Assembly: GCA_964436015.1 (NCBI GenBank)
Contig: CAYTAR010000004.1
Location: 23,454 to 87,453, forward strand
Reading direction: 5' to 3'
DNA: 64,000 nucleotides
Source: an uncultured Candidatus Saccharibacteria bacterium
GTDB taxonomy: Bacteria > Patescibacteriota > Minisyncoccia > Phycocordibacterales > GCA-2401445
Positions 24,974 through 43,520 of this stretch are shown piece by piece. Within the stretch, counting starts at the first letter, position 1. Every line of letters starts with the position of its first letter. The notes beneath the pieces are model-generated. The model did not search any database. It saw nothing but the letters and a program-made list of their open reading frames with translations, and was not told the origin of the DNA. Made by a program: the position numbers and the translations under genes.

Positions 24974-25360
24974 ATGCCCCATGTATCAAAACGACTACTT
25001 GAGAAGCACGAGTATGTGGACATTCACAAACAACTTTTCAAAACAATTGCCTTACTCGCCCGATCCGGAAAGACAGGAGCTGTTCTCAATGAACTTCTTA
25101 CTAAAACTGAGAAACTCATGCTTGCGAAGCGTCTCGCTATTATAATTATGCTTGATAAAAAAGAATCACCATACGCTATTGAAAAAATTTTAAAAATAAG
25201 CCCCTCTACTTCTGCTCGATTATCACTTAGCTATGAACAAGGTGCATACAATGAACTATTGAAAGAAATTCGAGCCGACCAAGGTTTTTGGAAACTAATT
25301 GAAAAGATCTTGCCACCGAGAGTAGGAAGGAATCGCTTCAAAAACTTTTTGCAATTTTAA
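24974..25360 (+). CDS. TrpR-like / YerC-YecD family DNA-binding protein
   Basis: LTKTEKLMLAKRLAIIIML… helix-turn-helix; 128 aa. Confidence 0.6.
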   Translation: MPHVSKRLLEKHEYVDIHKQLFKTIALLARSGKTGAVLNELLTKTEKLMLAKRLAIIIMLDKKESPYAIEKILKISPSTSARLSLSYEQGAYNELLKEIRADQGFWKLIEKILPPRVGRNRFKNFLQF

Positions 25361-25373
25361 AACACTTTTCTTT

Positions 25374-25395
25374 CTCATACGATATATCGTATGAG
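25374..25395. promoter_or_regulatory. second copy of the same palindrome core (22 bp) just downstream of the TrpR-like stop
   Basis: CTCATACGATATATCGTATGAG; the 20-bp core TCATACGATATATCGTATGA is identical to 24946-24965. Confidence 0.5.
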
Positions 25396-25804
25396 AAGAG
25401 ACTATAACATTCAAATACACTGTTGCAAAAAAGTGCATTGTCTAAACAGGTTCAGTACCCCGATTGGATTTTTTCTTCGCCTTTCAGGCTCAAAAAAATA
25501 CTCAATCGGCCTGCCTGCCGGTAGGCAGGGCTTCGATTCTGGCATGGAAGCATCCCCATGCTTCCACTCAGGCACGGGAGGGGGTCAGGGAACGGGAGTT
25601 TCCCGTGGAGTGAGAATGCATGGGTATGCATTCGCAAGGCCGGAGGCAGATGTGCCGAGGCGGGGTCGCGGGCTTTTTCAACAGAAAAAAGACCTGTGAC
25701 AGGTAGCGAGTGAGTCTGCGAGCGAGCGTCGGAAAACCGTGGGCGACCAATTTTCTAACATCTACTAATGTTAGAAAATGGAAGCACCCTTGTGGTGTTT
25801 CCAA

Positions 25805-25823
25805 GGTGCCCTCGGCCAGAATC
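25805..25823 (-). repeat. 19-nt direct repeat of the tRNA-Arg 3-prime end (acceptor/T-loop)
   Basis: gtgccctcggccagaatcg is identical to 25995-26013, same orientation, ~190 bp distal. Confidence 0.5.
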
Positions 25824-25995
25824 GGTCACGAGTTACTAATGTGCTCGGAAGTAAGAACTTCCTGTGCGCATAAGTACTCTCGACCCCGCCTCGTCTGTTT
25901 TGAGAGTACTCAAAACATGACTCCTGCTTTCGATTCGGCACGCGACCAAAGTAGTTTGGTCGCTCTCGGGCGCAGTTTTCACTGTGTTCAAACTG

Positions 25996-26067
25996 TGCCC
26001 TCGGCCAGAATCGAACTGACATCAGACCCTTAGGACGGGCCTGTTCTATCCATTGAACTACGAGGGC
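25996..26067 (-). tRNA. tRNA-Arg (anticodon CCT)
   Basis: Manual fold: acceptor GCCCTCG/CGAGGGC, D-arm GTTC-AATGGATA-GAAC, anticodon stem GGCCC/GGGTC with loop GTCCTAA, T-arm GTCAG-TTCGATT-CTGGC, discriminator A. CCA not encoded. Confidence 0.75.
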
Positions 26068-33580: not shown

Positions 33581-33892
33581 ATTTGTTGTGTACCATAAGC
33601 CGAATTCTGTATCCGCTAAGCGGATGATAATCATTTATCTGGGATATGTGTTACCACATACCTCAAGCGGCACTCCCCTCGACAAGCTCGGGGCACGGCC
33701 TTGCACCCAGGTAAGGATTTTGCCGTTTCACTTCTTTGTTACCAAAGACATTACCCCATACAGGGTACCTAGCCTTTCGGCATCAGCGTCACTGCTCGCA
33801 CCTCTCGGTTTACCCGGACGGGCGTTACCCGCTACCCTTCTCCAACACAAACGTGTGGGAGTGTTCGGACTTTCCTCTGTTTTACAACAGCG
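33580..33892 (-). ncRNA. rnpB: RNase P RNA (bacterial)
   Basis: Minus strand carries GGAAAGTCCGAACACTCCCACACG (CR-I-like), AGGGTAGCGGGTAACGCCCG (CR-II-like) and ACAGAATTCGGCTTATGG (CR-V-like). P1 pairing TGTTGT/ACAACA at the ends. Track ORFs here (33567..34124, 33736..33999 etc.) are spurious. Confidence 0.65.
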
Positions 33893-33933
33893 ATTATCCA
33901 GTACACAGAAAAACCATACCACAATATTTACAA

Positions 33934-41302: not shown

Positions 41303-41740
41303 ATGAAAGAAAGAAAATTCTTGTTTAATTTTTCCTCTCGTACTCCTGTTAAACAAATAAAAAAGGATTTACGAGTTGCACGCGGGAGAAGAAACATATA
41401 CCTCACTGCGAGAGTAATTCAGATACTGAGATCGAGGGGAATAGCATCCTTTCTGTCTCCACGGGAAAAAGACAGGCTCATTAAATGTCTTTCTCAGGCG
41501 CGGTATGGGACCACCACCCCTCTCGCCCAGTGGATACCCCGAGGATATCAAATCGCCCGCTTTCAGATGATTATTAAGGACCTCTACCCAAATCAGTCCT
41601 TATTCCAAAGCACAAAAAGAGATGTTTATCTAATAAAAGAAGCACTCAAGCAAATCAGGCGCGAGAAAGACAAGTGGATATCAGATCAAGAATCAAGCTT
41701 GATTTATACACTTCAACACCTCGGAATATCTCTCAAGTAA
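41303..41740 (+). CDS. hypothetical basic protein
   Basis: 145-aa ORF, no family recognised. Confidence 0.3.
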   Translation: MKERKFLFNFSSRTPVKQIKKDLRVARGRRNIYLTARVIQILRSRGIASFLSPREKDRLIKCLSQARYGTTTPLAQWIPRGYQIARFQMIIKDLYPNQSLFQSTKRDVYLIKEALKQIRREKDKWISDQESSLIYTLQHLGISLK

Positions 41741-41822
41741 CATAGCACCTTTACAGGTGCTTTTTTCTCACTATAAAAATTAGTGCCTGATTGAAACTAT
41801 ACTTATATAGAGAATTAAAAAA

Positions 41823-42242
41823 CTAATCTACTAGAAGAAAATCATTTTTCAAAATCTCACGCACATACACATCTACATCATTCATGTTTTTTATTTCTTC
41901 TATCGTTACCCATTTATATTCAATGTTTTCAGTAGTATCAAGAACCGGCTCTCCCTCTGTACGCCCTGTATAGGTTAAACGTACCACATGCTTTTCTGAA
42001 TTAGGAATGATATCTTGCGCGCATAGCAATATCGGCTCAGAAATGATTTCAAGTTGTGTCTCTTCTTTAACTTCACGTCGTAAATTATCAATCAATAATG
42101 ATCCTGGGTTGATTCGCCCACCCACAATATCCCAACTTCCATTAGTTACTTTATATTTCTCAGGAGAGCGTTTGAGAATAAGGTATTTCCCCTCTGTATT
42201 CTTGAGAAAAATTTTGACCCCAACTTGTAGTTTTATTTCCAT
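41823..42242 (-). CDS. NUDIX hydrolase
   Basis: Nudix box GGRINPGSLLIDNLRREVKEETQLEI. Confidence 0.7.
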   Translation of the reverse strand: MEIKLQVGVKIFLKNTEGKYLILKRSPEKYKVTNGSWDIVGGRINPGSLLIDNLRREVKEETQLEIISEPILLCAQDIIPNSEKHVVRLTYTGRTEGEPVLDTTENIEYKWVTIEEIKNMNDVDVYVREILKNDFLLVD

Positions 42243-42304
42243 GGTTGAGATTATTATATCATTATGTTTCTGAGGAGAATTTTTTCATCTTATCTCCCGC
42301 ATCT

Positions 42305-42387
42305 GTCTTTCGAATCTCCTACCTTCTCGCATTGATAATTCACTTGGATGGTCCCCACCCATCCTCGTGAATCTTTGCGGAAGGTAG
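42305..42387. repeat. 83-bp direct repeat, copy 1 (contains tRNA-Ser 3-prime 11 nt plus 72 nt of flank)
   Basis: ~95% identical to 42684-42766; ends …gaatctttgcggaaggtag. Confidence 0.6.
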
Positions 42388-42683
42388 ATTCGCCCGCAAG
42401 TCTCTTTTTTGCCGTCACAAAAAAGAGCTTTGGGCACCAGCTCGCGCTCAGGCACTGCTGCGCCTGACTTCGTGCGCTCCGCTGTTCGAATCTCCTACCT
42501 TCACGCAAAACAATATCCTCGGCGCTCCGCGCCTACGTCTTTGTTTGCGGAGAGCTTTGATAGAGATTCGGTCACAAGTTACTAAGTATTTTTCCGCAAA
42601 TGCCAGAAAAATCCAAAGTACTTGCGACCCCGACTCGTAGCCCCACTCTTTCACTTCGTTTCAGAGTGGGGACCCGCTACTCC

Positions 42684-42766
42684 GTCTTTCGAATCTTCTA
42701 CTTTCTCGCATTGATAATTCACTTGGATGGTCCCCATCCATCCTCGTGAATCATTGCGGAAGGTAG
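42684..42766. repeat. 83-bp direct repeat, copy 2, abutting/overlapping the 3-prime end of tRNA-Ser
   Basis: gtctttcgaatcttctactttctcgcattgataattcacttggatggtccccatccatcctcgtgaatcattgcggaaggtag. Confidence 0.6.
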
Positions 42767-42841
42767 GAGATTCGAACTCCTGGTGGGTTGCCCCACACGT
42801 CGTTTCCAACGACGCGCACTAGACCACTATGCGAACCTTCC
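42757..42841 (-). tRNA. tRNA-Ser (anticodon GGA), class II with long variable arm
   Basis: Manual fold: acceptor GGAAGGT/ACCTTCC, D-arm GCAT-AGTGGTCTA-GTGC, anticodon stem CGTCG/CGACG with loop TTGGAAA, variable arm GTGGG-GCAA-CCCAC, T-arm AGGAG-TTCGAAT-CTCCT, discriminator G. Confidence 0.75.
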
Positions 42842-42919
42842 ACTACCGATGCATCATATCAGATTTGGTACATAATAATATAGACCTTTAGGATTGAACA
42901 GATTTGGTATACTAGACTC

Positions 42920-43237
42920 ATGCCTTGTAACGGATGCCACGATGAAAACACGAAAAAGATGGAAGAACAAGAAGTTCGTACACGACTTCTAGTACTTCCC
43001 CGCTGGATCACTCAAAACGGTTTTCGTATTGAGCGAACATTTCTTTTTCCAGACTTTAAAGAAGCACTTTTATTTACCAACCGCATTGGTGAACTCGCGG
43101 AATCTGAAGGACACCACCCTGACGTTTTTCTCTCCTGGGGCAAAGTAACGGTCAGTTTAACCACTCACAGCGTCAAAGGTGTAACTGAACATGATTTTTT
43201 ACTTGCTGAAATGATTGACGGTCTGCTACAATCGTAA
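42920..43237 (+). CDS. pterin-4a-carbinolamine dehydratase (PCD/DCoH)
   Basis: EGHHPDVFLSWGKVTVSLTTHS matches the PCD [E]-x-HHP…H signature. Confidence 0.8.
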   Translation: MPCNGCHDENTKKMEEQEVRTRLLVLPRWITQNGFRIERTFLFPDFKEALLFTNRIGELAESEGHHPDVFLSWGKVTVSLTTHSVKGVTEHDFLLAEMIDGLLQS

Positions 43238-43520
43238 TATGGAAACTCAATTTAACCTCGCTCTCATTCTACAAGAACACCCTCTCCTTGTTCTTTTTAT
43301 CGTTTTTCTCACTATCTGGTCACTAACGTGGAAAGCGTTTGCACTCTGGCGTGCAGTGAAAAATGAATCTGTGGTATGGTTCATTGCTCTCCTTATCGTT
43401 AATACCGCAGGAATTCTTGAAATACTATATCTCTTTGTGTTTGGAAAAAAACACACTACTCCGCCACCGAAACATGATGAGACTGATACAACGAGTTACC
43501 AAAATACTAACCAATCGTAA
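43215..43520 (+). CDS. small membrane protein (2 TM)
   Basis: Hydrophobic ORF overlapping the PCD stop. Confidence 0.3.
   Translation: MTVCYNRNMETQFNLALILQEHPLLVLFIVFLTIWSLTWKAFALWRAVKNESVVWFIALLIVNTAGILEILYLFVFGKKHTTPPPKHDETDTTSYQNTNQS

What the first reader, a model, noticed from the sequence alone, without database searches (positions are those of the whole stretch)
42296..42851. tRNA-Ser(GGA) with an 83-bp direct repeat containing its 3-prime end, plus inverted tRNA-3-prime-like fragments
The last 11 nt of the tRNA plus 72 nt of downstream flank (gtctttcgaatc…gtgaatcattgcggaaggtag) are repeated ~95% identically 380 bp further downstream (42305-42387 vs 42684-42766). Each copy contains a long imperfect hairpin (attcacttggatgg-tcccca-cccatcctcgtgaat). 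Between the copies there is a third fragment, gttcgaatctcctaccttc (42488-42506), which is the tRNA T-loop/acceptor sequence in inverted orientation. This looks like repeated insertion and excision at a tRNA attachment site, or a tiny non-autonomous element, in the gap between the Nudix and PCD genes.
Basis: seen in the sequence. Interest (0 to 1): 0.55.

Follow-up and report, generated by a model that had tools for sequence, protein, structure and literature searches.

The report
tRNA-capped structured RNA modules behind tRNA genes
The repeats behind this tRNA-Ser gene are the joints of a tandem array of small non-coding modules, each a conserved folded core clamped between an antisense and a sense copy of the tRNA's 3' half; the family occurs behind many tRNA genes of candidate-phyla-radiation bacteria and is not in Rfam.

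Summary
tRNA-Ser(GGA) lies on the minus strand (42757-42841). An 86-nt direct repeat (94% identical) and three inverted 18-nt copies of the tRNA 3' half are present, far above chance.

On the tRNA strand the 510-nt gap reads: tRNA, hairpin H1, anti-3', core B, 3' copy, hairpin H2, anti-3', core A, 3' copy, hairpin H1, anti-3', truncated core.

Cores A and B are three-way junctions closed by a helix between an antisense and a sense copy of the tRNA T-loop/T-stem. A pattern scan found 115 metagenome examples (about 4 expected). About 88 lie 40-90 nt downstream of a tRNA gene on the same strand (Ser, Ala, Arg, Val, Thr, His, Asn).

Covariation is strong, and the tRNA strand folds better in 89 of 93 cases. 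A third copy follows the window's only other tRNA, Arg(CCT). No Rfam family matches, and no integrase or other recurrent protein lies nearby.

Best reading: a new family of tRNA-linked structured RNAs with tRNA-like ends, arrayed by duplication or recombination at the tRNA-end copies. Function is unknown, and a DNA-level mobile cassette is not excluded.

The parts
42757..42841 (-). tRNA-Ser(GGA) gene. Its 3' half TTCGAATCTCCTACCTTCCG is 42757-42776.
   Evidence: ARAGORN. Rfam tRNA 53 bits. Identical in relative L001.
42707..42756 (-). Linker hairpin H1, copy a (the tRNA trailer).
   Evidence: Conserved with compensatory changes in L001, L130 and L146.
42688..42706 (-). Antisense copy 1 of the tRNA 3' half (16/18 complementary to the real tRNA). 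Its last bases start helix P1 of module B.
42564..42696 (-). Module B. P1 is AGATTCG (42690-42696) with CGAATCT (42564-42570), closing a three-way junction: AAA, P2 GAC/GTC, GGAG..CGAG around P3, then GGGGTCG..GTGACC as P4.
   Evidence: Covariance model R1, 68.1 bits, E=1.3e-16 over 42554-42706. Fold.
42546..42570 (-). Degenerate sense copy of the tRNA 3' end (CGAATCTCTATCAAAGCTCTCCGCA) that ends module B.
   Evidence: The corresponding copy in L001 is a perfect 19-mer.
42504..42545 (-). Linker hairpin H2. It is homologous to the native tRNA-Ser(GGA) trailer of another Paceibacteria MAG (L023), with compensatory changes (GGCGC/GCGCC versus GACGC/GCGTC).
   Evidence: read directly. Coordinates.
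42485..42503 (-). Antisense copy 2 of the tRNA 3' half (18/18).
42386..42493 (-). Module A. P1 is AGATTCG (42487-42493) with CGAATCT (42386-42392). The core has P2 AGC/GCT, GGAG..CGAG, then GGTGCCCA..GCGGGC.
   Evidence: R1, 81.5 bits, E=3.9e-20 over 42376-42503. The same core type occurs in Saccharibacteria L018.
42376..42392 (-). Sense copy of the tRNA 3' end with a 3-nt deletion (CGAATCT---ACCTTCCGCA).
42328..42375 (-). Linker hairpin H1, copy b.
42294..42327 (-). Antisense copy 3 (18/18, 42309-42327) followed by only the first about 17 nt of another B-type core (AGATTCGAAAGACAGAT..). This is a truncated third module abutting the Nudix upstream region.
   Evidence: No R1 hit here.
25808..25947 (-). 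Third full module, 48 nt downstream of tRNA-Arg(CCT) (25995-26067, minus strand). Its P1 is GAATCG/CGATTC, matching that tRNA's own T-loop. It ends in an exact 18-nt copy of the tRNA 3' end (25807-25824 = 25996-26013).
   Evidence: R1, 55.7 bits, E=2.5e-13..
25447..25570 (-). Hairpin plus a 3'-truncated module with a different core ('type C', ..CCAATCGGGGTACTG..). Its 5' cap CCAGAATCG is antisense to the tRNA-Arg T-loop/T-stem.
   Evidence: Coordinates approximate, read from the sequence.
25636..25700 (+). Partial A/B-type core on the opposite strand, with no tRNA beside it.
   Evidence: R1, 27.7 bits, E=5.9e-06, model positions 18-106.

Best explanation
The finding is the scaffold of a tandem array (two complete modules plus a truncated third) of a previously undescribed family of small non-coding modules. 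These modules sit directly 3' of tRNA genes in Patescibacteria (CPR). Each module is a conserved three-way-junction core. The core is closed by a helix (P1) formed between an antisense copy and a sense copy of the neighbouring tRNA's 3' half (T-loop, T-stem 3' strand, often the acceptor 3' strand and discriminator). The 86-nt 'direct repeat' is the joint between modules: sense copy, linker hairpin, antisense copy.

Shown: the family exists. It is tRNA-linked and co-oriented with the tRNA. Its structure is under selection. The structure reads better on the tRNA strand.

Inferred: the modules are made as RNA from the tRNA strand, by read-through of the tRNA terminator or from a weak promoter of their own. 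The acceptor-like helix with a single-stranded discriminator/C(A/C)A tail gives each RNA tRNA-like ends. RNase P (its RNA gene is in this window) and the tRNA 3'-end enzymes could trim these ends, as with RtT RNA of the E. coli tyrT operon. Arrays grow and shuffle by recombination or duplication between the repeated tRNA-end copies. What the cores do is unknown. Because the antisense segment tracks the real tRNA, a tRNA-specific role (binding or competing with the cognate tRNA 3' half) is my leading guess.
For: Anatomy of the window array.

Family and tRNA linkage:
- The same core occurs in Saccharibacteria L018, flanked by a 21-bp repeat of the tRNA end.
- The pattern AGATTCGAAMRNCGGAG-N70-100-CGAATCT gave 115 metagenome stretches against my estimate of about 4 by chance.
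- About 88 of these lie 40-90 nt downstream of a tRNA on the same strand.
- After the element comes a copy of that tRNA's 3' end, up to 22/22 identical. The copy ends within 4 nt of the tRNA end in 31 of 65 loci.
- Model R1 finds a third copy behind the window's only other tRNA, with P1 adapted to that tRNA's T-loop.
- Extra copies found without the P1 word again follow Arg, Val, His and Ser tRNAs or form second and third tandem copies.

Structure and strand:
- 95.5% of cells are paired, against 78.6% in shuffles.
- The covariation score is 0.416, against 0.108 shuffled (0 of 500 reach it) and at most 0.082 when slid.
- P2 shows 7 different Watson-Crick triplets, 263 of 264 pairs.
- The tRNA strand folds better than its complement in 89 of 93 cases, p=1.5e-16.

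Conservation:
- Orthologous module B is at the same site in L001 although the core is only 58% identical. The linker plus antisense segment is 89% identical, against 71-78% for genes.
- The sense copies keep the C(A/C)A context of the tRNA 3' processing site.
- RNase P RNA is present at 33581-33909.
- A second, unrelated core type carries the same caps, so the cap looks like a general device.
Against: - No expression data exist.
- A terminator-like hairpin plus T-run lies between tRNA and module in 36 of 62 loci, and no clear promoter was found. Transcription is therefore an assumption.
- G.U versus A.C counts in the helices do not separate RNA from single-stranded DNA.
- Where the real tRNA and the downstream copy differ, the antisense segment matches the real tRNA (10 versus 1, and 41 versus 22). 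In this window the copies that should close P1 beyond 7 bp are degenerate. The acceptor-like end is therefore not always maintained.
- In tRNA-Ala cases G3.U70 becomes A-U, so charging like a tRNA is unlikely.
- Tandem, nested and mosaic modules and patchy presence among relatives are what a selfish DNA element would also show.
Confidence: 0.5

Rival explanations
1. The modules are miniature non-autonomous mobile DNA cassettes that target tRNA 3' ends. The conserved fold belongs to a single-stranded DNA (or RNA) intermediate. In that intermediate the antisense and sense tRNA pieces pair to present a copy of the tRNA-gene target to a recombinase acting in trans, as integron attC sites and the CTX-phage attP hairpin do. 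Integration next to the tRNA leaves tRNA, linker, antisense copy, core, sense copy. Repeated events build arrays.
For: - The repeated piece runs from the T-loop to the tRNA end, the classical identity segment of tRNA-targeting recombinases.
- The order inverted site, about 100-nt structured spacer, direct site is what an integrated CTX-type hairpin site leaves (my knowledge of CTX integration).
- Structure is conserved while sequence varies, as in attC.
- Tandem arrays, a 49-bp repeat that includes trailer, a whole-unit tandem and nested modules all occur.
- The middle module of the window carries the trailer type of another lineage.
- Sites are empty in 10 CPR loci with the identical tRNA end.
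- Different cores share the same caps.
Against: - No recombinase, Rep or reverse transcriptase lies within 3 kb in the 89 unique metagenome elements examined or among 30 window proteins.
- There are 0 hits in 2.9 million viral contigs.
- Copies within one genome are old and divergent, not recent transpositions.
- The orthologous copy has been kept by descent, with compensatory changes, across 22-29% gene divergence.
- The folded helix reproduces only half of the T-arm core site.
- In most members P1 is only 7-11 bp.
Confidence: 0.25
2. The modules are derived tRNA paralogues. In this view a tandem duplicate of the tRNA gene lost its D and anticodon arms (replaced by one hairpin) and gained a large insertion in the T-loop. 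Acceptor and T stems stay matched to the parent tRNA by gene conversion.
For: In 'architecture 2' the order is acceptor 5' strand (7 nt), one hairpin, T-stem 5' strand, ATTCGAA, core, CGAAT, T-stem 3' strand, acceptor 3' strand, discriminator. This is the order of a tRNA. The 3' copy ends where the tRNA ends. The antisense (= 5' strand) part follows the real tRNA.
Against: - Homologous cores sit behind unrelated tRNAs (Ser, Ala, Arg, Val, Thr, His, Asn), so the core was not born separately from each tRNA.
- The loop word is ATTCGAA (the complement), not TTCGAAT.
- G3.U70 of tRNA-Ala appears as A-U, so the 5' strand is a complement of the 3' strand, not a copy of the tRNA 5' end.
- ARAGORN and the Rfam tRNA model do not call the modules.
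Confidence: 0.1
3. The repeats are scars of successive integrations and deletions of ordinary integrase-carrying islands or prophages at a tRNA attachment site. What lies between them is decaying remnant DNA.
For: There are direct repeats of the tRNA 3' end downstream of the gene. The slot between the Zincin gene and the tRNA holds different genes in the window (ORF145, Nudix) and in L001 (GIY-YIG).
Against: - The interior is a covarying, structure-conserved family found behind many tRNAs.
- Inverted copies are not produced by integrase recombination.
- No integrase was found.
- Module B is orthologous in L001.
Confidence: 0.05
4. The repeats are generic intergenic palindromes (REP/BIME- or MITE-like repeats, or stacked terminators) that happen to lie near a tRNA.
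For: Imperfect palindromes and hairpins are present. Terminator-like hairpins are common in the linkers.
Against: - All full-length model hits in 64 kb are just downstream of the two tRNAs; the one partial hit (25636-25700, plus strand) lies in the tRNA-Arg downstream region but has no tRNA upstream on its own strand.
- The caps are copies of each tRNA's own 3' half.
- There are no terminal-inverted-repeat plus target-duplication signatures.
- No terminator was called in the window gap.
Confidence: 0.03

Closest known systems
RtT RNA and the 178-bp repeats of the E. coli tyrT operon (Rfam RF00391)
   Same: Repeat units lie directly downstream of a tRNA gene on its strand, and each carries a copy of the tRNA's 3' end. 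The product is reported as a stable RNA released by processing of the tRNA operon transcript (my recollection of the tyrT literature; rttR/RtT is mentioned in bioRxiv 10.1101/2024.07.17.603846).
   Different: There is no sequence or structure match (no Rfam hit). RtT is confined to one enterobacterial operon. Here many tRNA identities in CPR are involved. Each unit also has an antisense copy and a conserved three-way-junction core.
attL/attR duplications of tRNA-targeting integrative elements
   Same: There is a direct repeat of the tRNA gene from the T-loop to the 3' end. Occupancy varies among relatives.
   Different: There is no integrase and no cargo. Antisense copies are present. The interior is conserved in structure and inherited vertically.
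Folded single-strand recombination sites: integron attC and CTX-phage attP(+)
   Same: These are imperfect palindromes whose structure, not sequence, is conserved. An inverted plus a direct copy of a recombination target is separated by about 100 nt. They occur in arrays.
   Different: There are no attC R/L boxes, no integron integrase or attI nearby, and no ORF cassettes. The helix covers only half of the T-arm site. Junction nucleotides are conserved (AAM, GGAG/CGAG).
RNAs with tRNA-like modules used for processing or stability (tmRNA, bacterial Y RNA YrlA, mascRNA-type 3' ends, RNase P external-guide substrates)
   Same: The helix is acceptor-like with a single-stranded discriminator tail. 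The ends of the RNA pair with each other.
   Different: There is no T-loop or elbow (the T-loop bases are paired in P1). There is no Rfam match. The helix copies whichever tRNA is next door.
REP/BIME, ERIC and MITE-type intergenic repeats
   Same: They are short, structured, non-coding, multi-copy and sometimes nested.
   Different: The association with tRNA 3' ends is strict and orientation is fixed. The caps are tailored to each tRNA. There is no TIR/TSD signature.

Membership tests
tRNA-capped three-way-junction module (model R1 built here) | Significant match to the covariance model built from 92 examples | tested here: met
   Scores are 81.5, 68.1 and 55.7 bits for 42376-42503, 42554-42706 and 25808-25947. 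The first two were in the seed alignment. The third was not.
tRNA-capped three-way-junction module (model R1 built here) | Position 30-90 nt downstream of a tRNA gene on the same strand, or in tandem behind such a copy | tested here: met
   Module B starts 60 nt after tRNA-Ser. Module A follows in tandem. The third module starts 48 nt after tRNA-Arg.
tRNA-capped three-way-junction module (model R1 built here) | P1 formed by antisense and sense copies of the neighbouring tRNA's own T-loop/T-stem | tested here: met
   P1 is AGATTCG/CGAATCT at tRNA-Ser and GAATCG/CGATTC at tRNA-Arg. P1 extension columns covary.
tRNA-capped three-way-junction module (model R1 built here) | Made as a discrete RNA | not testable with these tools
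   Only indirect evidence exists: strand bias of folding energy and co-orientation with the tRNA.
RtT RNA (RF00391) | Match to the Rfam model | tested here: not met
   There is no hit at E up to 10 in 41500-43500, nor at gathering score in the window and 8 loci.
RtT RNA (RF00391) | Repeat units behind a tRNA gene, each with a copy of the tRNA 3' end | tested here: met
Integrase att site at a tRNA gene | Direct repeat covering the tRNA 3' end | tested here: met
Integrase att site at a tRNA gene | Integrase gene and cargo between or beside the repeats | tested here: not met
   There are 379 bp without a credible gene between the repeats. No recombinase domain was found in the neighbours or in 30 window proteins. 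None was found near the 89 unique metagenome elements examined.
Integron attC site | R''/R' core sites (RYYYAAC / GTTRRRY) and an integron integrase with attI | tested here: not met
   The helix ends read AGATTCG/CGAATCT. No integrase was found. The whole genome was not available.
Integron attC site | Structure conserved, sequence variable, imperfect palindrome | tested here: met
tRNA or tRNA pseudogene | Cloverleaf recognised by tRNA finders | tested here: not met
   ARAGORN and Rfam tRNA call only the two real tRNAs in the window.
REP/MITE-type repeat | Many copies at loci unrelated to tRNAs; TIR plus target duplication | tested here: not met
   R1 with filters off on 64 kb gives full-length hits only just downstream of the two tRNAs. 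The single weaker partial hit (25636-25700, plus strand, 27.7 bits) has no tRNA upstream on its own strand. The 5' flank is the complement, not a repeat, of the 3' flank.

The most novel reading that the evidence does not exclude
Patescibacteria carry a previously unrecognised superfamily of tRNA-coupled RNAs. Interchangeable structured cores (at least types A/B and C) are each clamped between an antisense and a sense copy of the 3' half of one particular tRNA. The RNA is both cut out by the tRNA-processing machinery and addressed to that tRNA. It can toggle between pairing with itself (P1) and pairing with the tRNA 3' half or its precursor. This would be a per-tRNA regulatory or quality-control device. 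Alternatively it is a 'genomic-tag'-bearing selfish RNA that copies itself next to tRNA genes.
Probability: 0.3. Interest if true: 0.85.

Novelty: new variant of a known kind. Interest (0 to 1): 0.7.

Why it matters
CPR bacteria have tiny genomes with little non-coding DNA. Yet here about 500 nt behind one tRNA and about 600 nt behind another are filled with structure-conserved modules, and more than 100 further examples turned up in one scan. The family is absent from Rfam 15, and I found no paper on it. If the modules are RNAs, they are a new and abundant class whose ends are defined by borrowing the neighbouring tRNA's 3' half. That would be a natural counterpart of engineered tRNA-flanked RNA arrays. 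If they are mobile, they would be the smallest known elements that target tRNA genes, and would do so without an adjacent recombinase. Either way they explain a recurrent annotation puzzle: partial tRNA 3' ends in both orientations behind CPR tRNA genes. They also give a concrete target for metatranscriptome checks.

Tried and rejected
- **Narrow DNA pattern.** The exact pattern of the inverted fragment plus flank (TTCGAATCTYCTACYTTCNCGCA) gave 0 hits in genome, viral and metagenome collections. It was too specific.
- **Same-strain contigs.** Exact-protein look-ups of the window's PCD, Nudix and LemA found no other contig of the same strain. Within-population filled/empty alleles could therefore not be examined.
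- **Known ribozymes, riboswitches, SRP, 6S, tmRNA, Y RNA, RtT.** No Rfam match even at E up to 10. By eye, the hammerhead core is not conserved between the window and L018.
- **Retron-like ncRNA** (inverted ends, msr/msd hairpins). Rejected because no reverse transcriptase is nearby in any locus.
- **Primer-binding site for tRNA-primed reverse transcription.** Rejected because the complementarity stops at position 71/72 and never covers the discriminator or CCA.
- **Aminoacylatable minihelix** (Ser and Ala dominate the first scan). Weakened for two reasons: the model then found Arg, Val, His and Thr cases, and G3.U70 is lost in the Ala cases.
- **Own sigma-70 promoter.** Only a TATATT-like box inside the T-run was seen, with no -35 at the right spacing.
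- **G.U versus A.C counts to separate RNA from DNA.** Inconclusive.
- **Encoded CCA.** It is more frequent after the copies than after the genes (10 versus 6 of 64), which is not significant.
- **Literature.** Six full-text searches found nothing on these elements.
Full report
**1. Checking the observation**

tRNA-Ser(GGA) is on the minus strand at 42756/7-42841. The repeat finder gives an 86-nt direct repeat, 42302-42387 versus 42681-42766, 94% identical. It overlaps the last 10-11 nt of the tRNA. The 18-mer TTCGAATCTCCTACCTTC runs from the T-loop to the acceptor 3' strand. It occurs once in the tRNA and three times on the opposite strand (42309, 42485, 42688), against 0.06 expected. The inner hairpin occurs twice and nowhere else in the window.

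The middle fragment is at 42484/5-42502. Both copies of the repeat also begin with an inverted tRNA fragment. Each repeat unit is therefore one long imperfect palindrome: tRNA 3' half, trailer, hairpin, trailer', antisense 3' half. The gap 42243-42755 has about 50% G+C in a 35-40% background and folds with z = -10.9.

**2. Anatomy on the tRNA strand**

Read 5' to 3' after the tRNA, the order is:
- linker hairpin H1 (42707-42756);
- antisense copy 1 of the tRNA 3' half (42688-42706, 16/18);
- a 119-nt stretch;
- a degenerate sense copy of the tRNA end (42546-42570);
- a different linker hairpin, H2 (42504-42545);
- antisense copy 2 (42485-42503, 18/18);
- an 86-nt stretch;
- a sense copy with a 3-nt deletion (42376-42392);
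- H1 again (42328-42375);
- antisense copy 3 (42309-42327, 18/18);
- only the first about 17 nt of another such stretch, then the Nudix gene.

The interesting material is what lies between the joints.

**3. Relatives**

The organism is a CPR bacterium. The adjacent pterin dehydratase has a 76%-identical homologue in a Candidatus Paceibacterota MAG. That locus (L001) is syntenic.

L001 has the same tRNA (100% identical), the same H1 plus antisense segment (89%) and a stretch corresponding to the first one. In the inner hairpin ATTCAC/GTGAAT becomes ATTCGC/GCGAAT, a compensatory change. The closing stem changes in the same way, from GTAGC/GCTAC to GGCGC/GCGCC. Genes around it are 71-78% identical and the spacer is 70%.

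A scan of reference genomes for the 18-mer gave 29 loci. In a Saccharibacteria MAG (L018) the tRNA-Ser gene is followed by a stretch clearly homologous to the window's second one. Shared words are AGATTCGAACAsCGGAG, GGTGCCCA and GCGGGCGAATCT. That stretch is bracketed by a 21-bp direct repeat of the tRNA end.

**4. A large family tied to tRNA genes**

The pattern AGATTCGAAMRNCGGAG-N(70-100)-CGAATCT found 115 metagenome stretches. I estimate about 4 by chance from the pattern's information content. It found none in viral contigs.

In about 88 of them a tRNA gene ends 40-90 nt upstream on the same strand:
- Ser-GGA 26 and Ser-TGA 26;
- Ala-TGC 15;
- Ser-CGA 7, Ser-'ACT' 5 and Ser-GCT 3;
- a few Thr, Val and Asn.

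Most of the rest are at contig ends.

After the element comes a copy of that tRNA's 3' end from CGAATCT on, up to 22/22 identical. The copy ends within 4 nt of the tRNA end in 31 of 65 loci. It has decayed earlier in 28 and runs into the trailer in 6. In L050 the repeat is 49 bp, and in L110 the whole unit is repeated in tandem.

One locus (L139) is Candidatus Kaiserbacteria. Named hosts are therefore Paceibacterota/Parcubacteria and Saccharibacteria.

**5. Structure**

The alignment of 92 sequences and RNAalifold give the following elements:
- P1, AGATTCG with CGAATCT. It was imposed by the search, but its outward extension into the T-stem covaries (AU 21, GC 19, UA 11, CG 9).
- The junction AAM.
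- A 3-bp P2 whose middle pair is GC 32, CG 31, AU 27.
- The conserved GGAG...CGAG flanking P3.
- A long P4. In type A it is GGTGCCCAGAC...GTCGCGGGC. In type B it is GGGGTCGnnnG...CnnnGTGACC.

On the named structure 95.5% of cells pair, against 78.6% in shuffles. The covariation score is 0.416, against 0.108 shuffled (0 of 500 reach it) and at most 0.082 when partners are slid. My own parse finds seven different Watson-Crick triplets for P2, with 263 of 264 pairs Watson-Crick.

The tRNA strand folds more stably than its complement in 89 of 93 cases (-54.1 versus -47.8 kcal/mol, p=1.5e-16). G.U versus A.C counts are not decisive.

Two cap architectures exist. In the first, the acceptor complement is contiguous with the T-stem complement, as in this window. 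In the second, it lies 27-28 nt upstream, separated by a 9-bp hairpin.

**6. Model searches**

Covariance model R1, run over the whole window with filters off, scores the two stretches at 81.5 and 68.1 bits. It also finds a third copy at 25808-25947 (55.7 bits, E=2.5e-13), 48 nt behind the only other tRNA of the window, Arg(CCT). There P1 is GAATCG/CGATTC, tailored to that tRNA's T-loop. An exact 18-nt copy of the tRNA end follows.

In the loci fetched for other reasons, R1 hits only the L001 species and L018. Ten other CPR loci with the identical tRNA-Ser 3' end, and all non-CPR loci, are empty.

Extra copies in the metagenome loci, found without the P1 word, again follow tRNAs (Arg-GCG, Arg-TCT, Val-TAC, His, Ser) or are second and third tandem copies. 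Of 57 further tRNAs in those loci, 12 have a module and 45 do not.

Arrays can be mosaic or nested. A second, unrelated core (type C...GGKGTACTG plus hairpin) carries the same antisense/sense caps. A 3'-truncated type C with tRNA-Arg caps lies at about 25447-25570 in the window.

**7. What it is not**

- No Rfam 15 family matches the elements, at E up to 10 for the Ser locus or at gathering score for the window and eight other loci.
- No protein family recurs within 3 kb of the 89 unique metagenome elements examined, beyond housekeeping synteny.
- None of the 30 window proteins scanned has a recombinase, transposase or reverse-transcriptase domain.
- Six literature searches found nothing.

**8. 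Most likely mechanism**

Shown: a structure-constrained, tRNA-linked, strand-specific family, with three full members and three fragments in this window.

Inferred: the modules are RNAs made from the tRNA strand. The cap (an antisense plus a sense copy of the tRNA 3' half) forms an acceptor-like helix that ends exactly at the position of pair 1-72. A single-stranded discriminator and a C(A/C)A context follow. This is the kind of substrate that RNase P and the tRNA 3'-end enzymes trim, from my knowledge of RNase P external-guide substrates. The RNase P RNA gene is at 33581-33909. The fact that an unrelated core uses the same cap fits a general 'cut-out and stabilise' device.

Arrays would arise by unequal recombination or insertion at the repeated sense copies. 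The H2 linker of the middle module matches the native trailer of another lineage (L023), with compensatory changes. That module was therefore probably imported.

**9. What does not fit neatly**

- A terminator-like hairpin plus T-run lies between tRNA and module in 36 of 62 loci (shuffled 0.3). After the sense copy it occurs in only 9 of 62. No convincing promoter was seen.
- Where tRNA and copy differ, the antisense segment pairs with the real tRNA (10 versus 1 in the T-stem zone, 41 versus 22 in the acceptor zone). In the window the antisense segments are 16-18/18 complementary to the real tRNA while the local copies are degenerate.
- The long hairpin 'tRNA 3' half, H1, antisense' is itself conserved with covariation in five sequences from four organisms (27 pairs, 11 with double changes, one conserved G.U on the tRNA strand).

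Two mutually exclusive registers are therefore both supported. This suggests either a switch that involves the cognate tRNA or DNA-level palindrome correction.

**10. Rivals**

- **Mobile DNA cassette with a folded single-strand site** (attC- or CTX-like), confidence 0.25. It explains the T-loop-to-end repeat, the order inverted site, spacer, direct site, and the arrays, nesting and patchy distribution. It lacks any recombinase. It does not fit the old, divergent, vertically kept copies. The helix covers only half of the T-arm site.
- **Derived tRNA paralogue**, 0.1. It fits architecture 2. It does not fit homologous cores behind unrelated tRNAs, nor the complement-type loop word and the A-U at 3:70.
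- **Integrase scars**, 0.05, and **generic REP/terminator repeats**, 0.03. Both are contradicted by the covarying interior and the strict tRNA linkage.

**11. Comparison and novelty**

The nearest known thing is the E. coli tyrT operon with its tRNA-end-bearing repeats and RtT RNA (plus my recollection). The logic is similar, but there is no homology, no antisense copy and no three-way junction. It resembles att duplications in the extent of the repeat only. It resembles attC/CTX sites in being structure-conserved palindromes only.

I file it as a new variant of a known kind (tRNA-operon-linked repeat RNAs with tRNA-like ends). I note that the per-tRNA antisense/sense capping of interchangeable cores has, as far as I could find, not been described.

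**12. Limits**

- There are no expression data and no complete genome of the organism.
- The first scan was biased by its P1 word toward tRNAs with a TTCGAATCT T-arm.
- The MAFFT alignment is poor in P3 and P4.
- E-values of R1 are rough.
- The chance expectation of about 4 for one search is my own estimate.

Noticed in passing
window 33581-33909 (-): Bacterial RNase P RNA, class A, 107 bits (gathering score 100).
   Followed up: no
window 25300-25995 (-): The gap behind tRNA-Arg(CCT) is also packed with modules. It holds one full B-type module with an exact 18-nt copy of the tRNA end, a bidirectional terminator-like hairpin, a partial core on the opposite strand (25636-25700) and a truncated type-C module (about 25447-25570). 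The ORFs listed there (25391-25699 +, 25568-25804 -) are probably spurious.
   Followed up: partly
L001 9261-9652 (-); L009 about 1-434; L042 and L146 after the element: A gene of about 77 aa for a GIY-YIG nuclease follows the tRNA-Ser 3' end (or its copy) on the tRNA strand. It is preceded by a shared motif (CC TTCG..CGCAGTAGC..CTTCGGCG.GAC...GTCCGC), which forms three tandem 44-47-nt units in L001. This looks like a second kind of cassette that uses tRNA 3' ends. In the window the same slot holds ORF145 (41303-41740, no Pfam hit) and a Nudix gene (41823-42242).
   Followed up: partly
L052, L063, L068, L073, L087, L104: ARAGORN calls tRNA-Ser genes with anticodon ACT (ACU) in several CPR metagenome contigs. 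This is unusual for bacteria, where GCU is expected.
   Followed up: no
L010 4654-4739 and 6540-6625: Two tRNA-Ser(GGA) genes lie 1.9 kb apart in a Paceibacteria MAG. The second has an altered acceptor stem. This looks like an insertion bracketed by tRNA copies.
   Followed up: no
L018 436-455: A partial copy of the 5' part (D arm) of tRNA-Ser lies about 40 nt upstream of the gene.
   Followed up: no
L108 1-760; L145 300-530: Mosaic and nested arrays occur. A type-C core is inserted in the P3 loop of an A/B-type module. In another case a type-C module replaces the 5' half of a B-type module.
   Followed up: partly
window 42504-42545 versus L023 300-345: The H2 linker of the middle module is homologous to the native tRNA-Ser(GGA) trailer of a different Paceibacteria lineage. 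This suggests lateral import of that module.
   Followed up: partly
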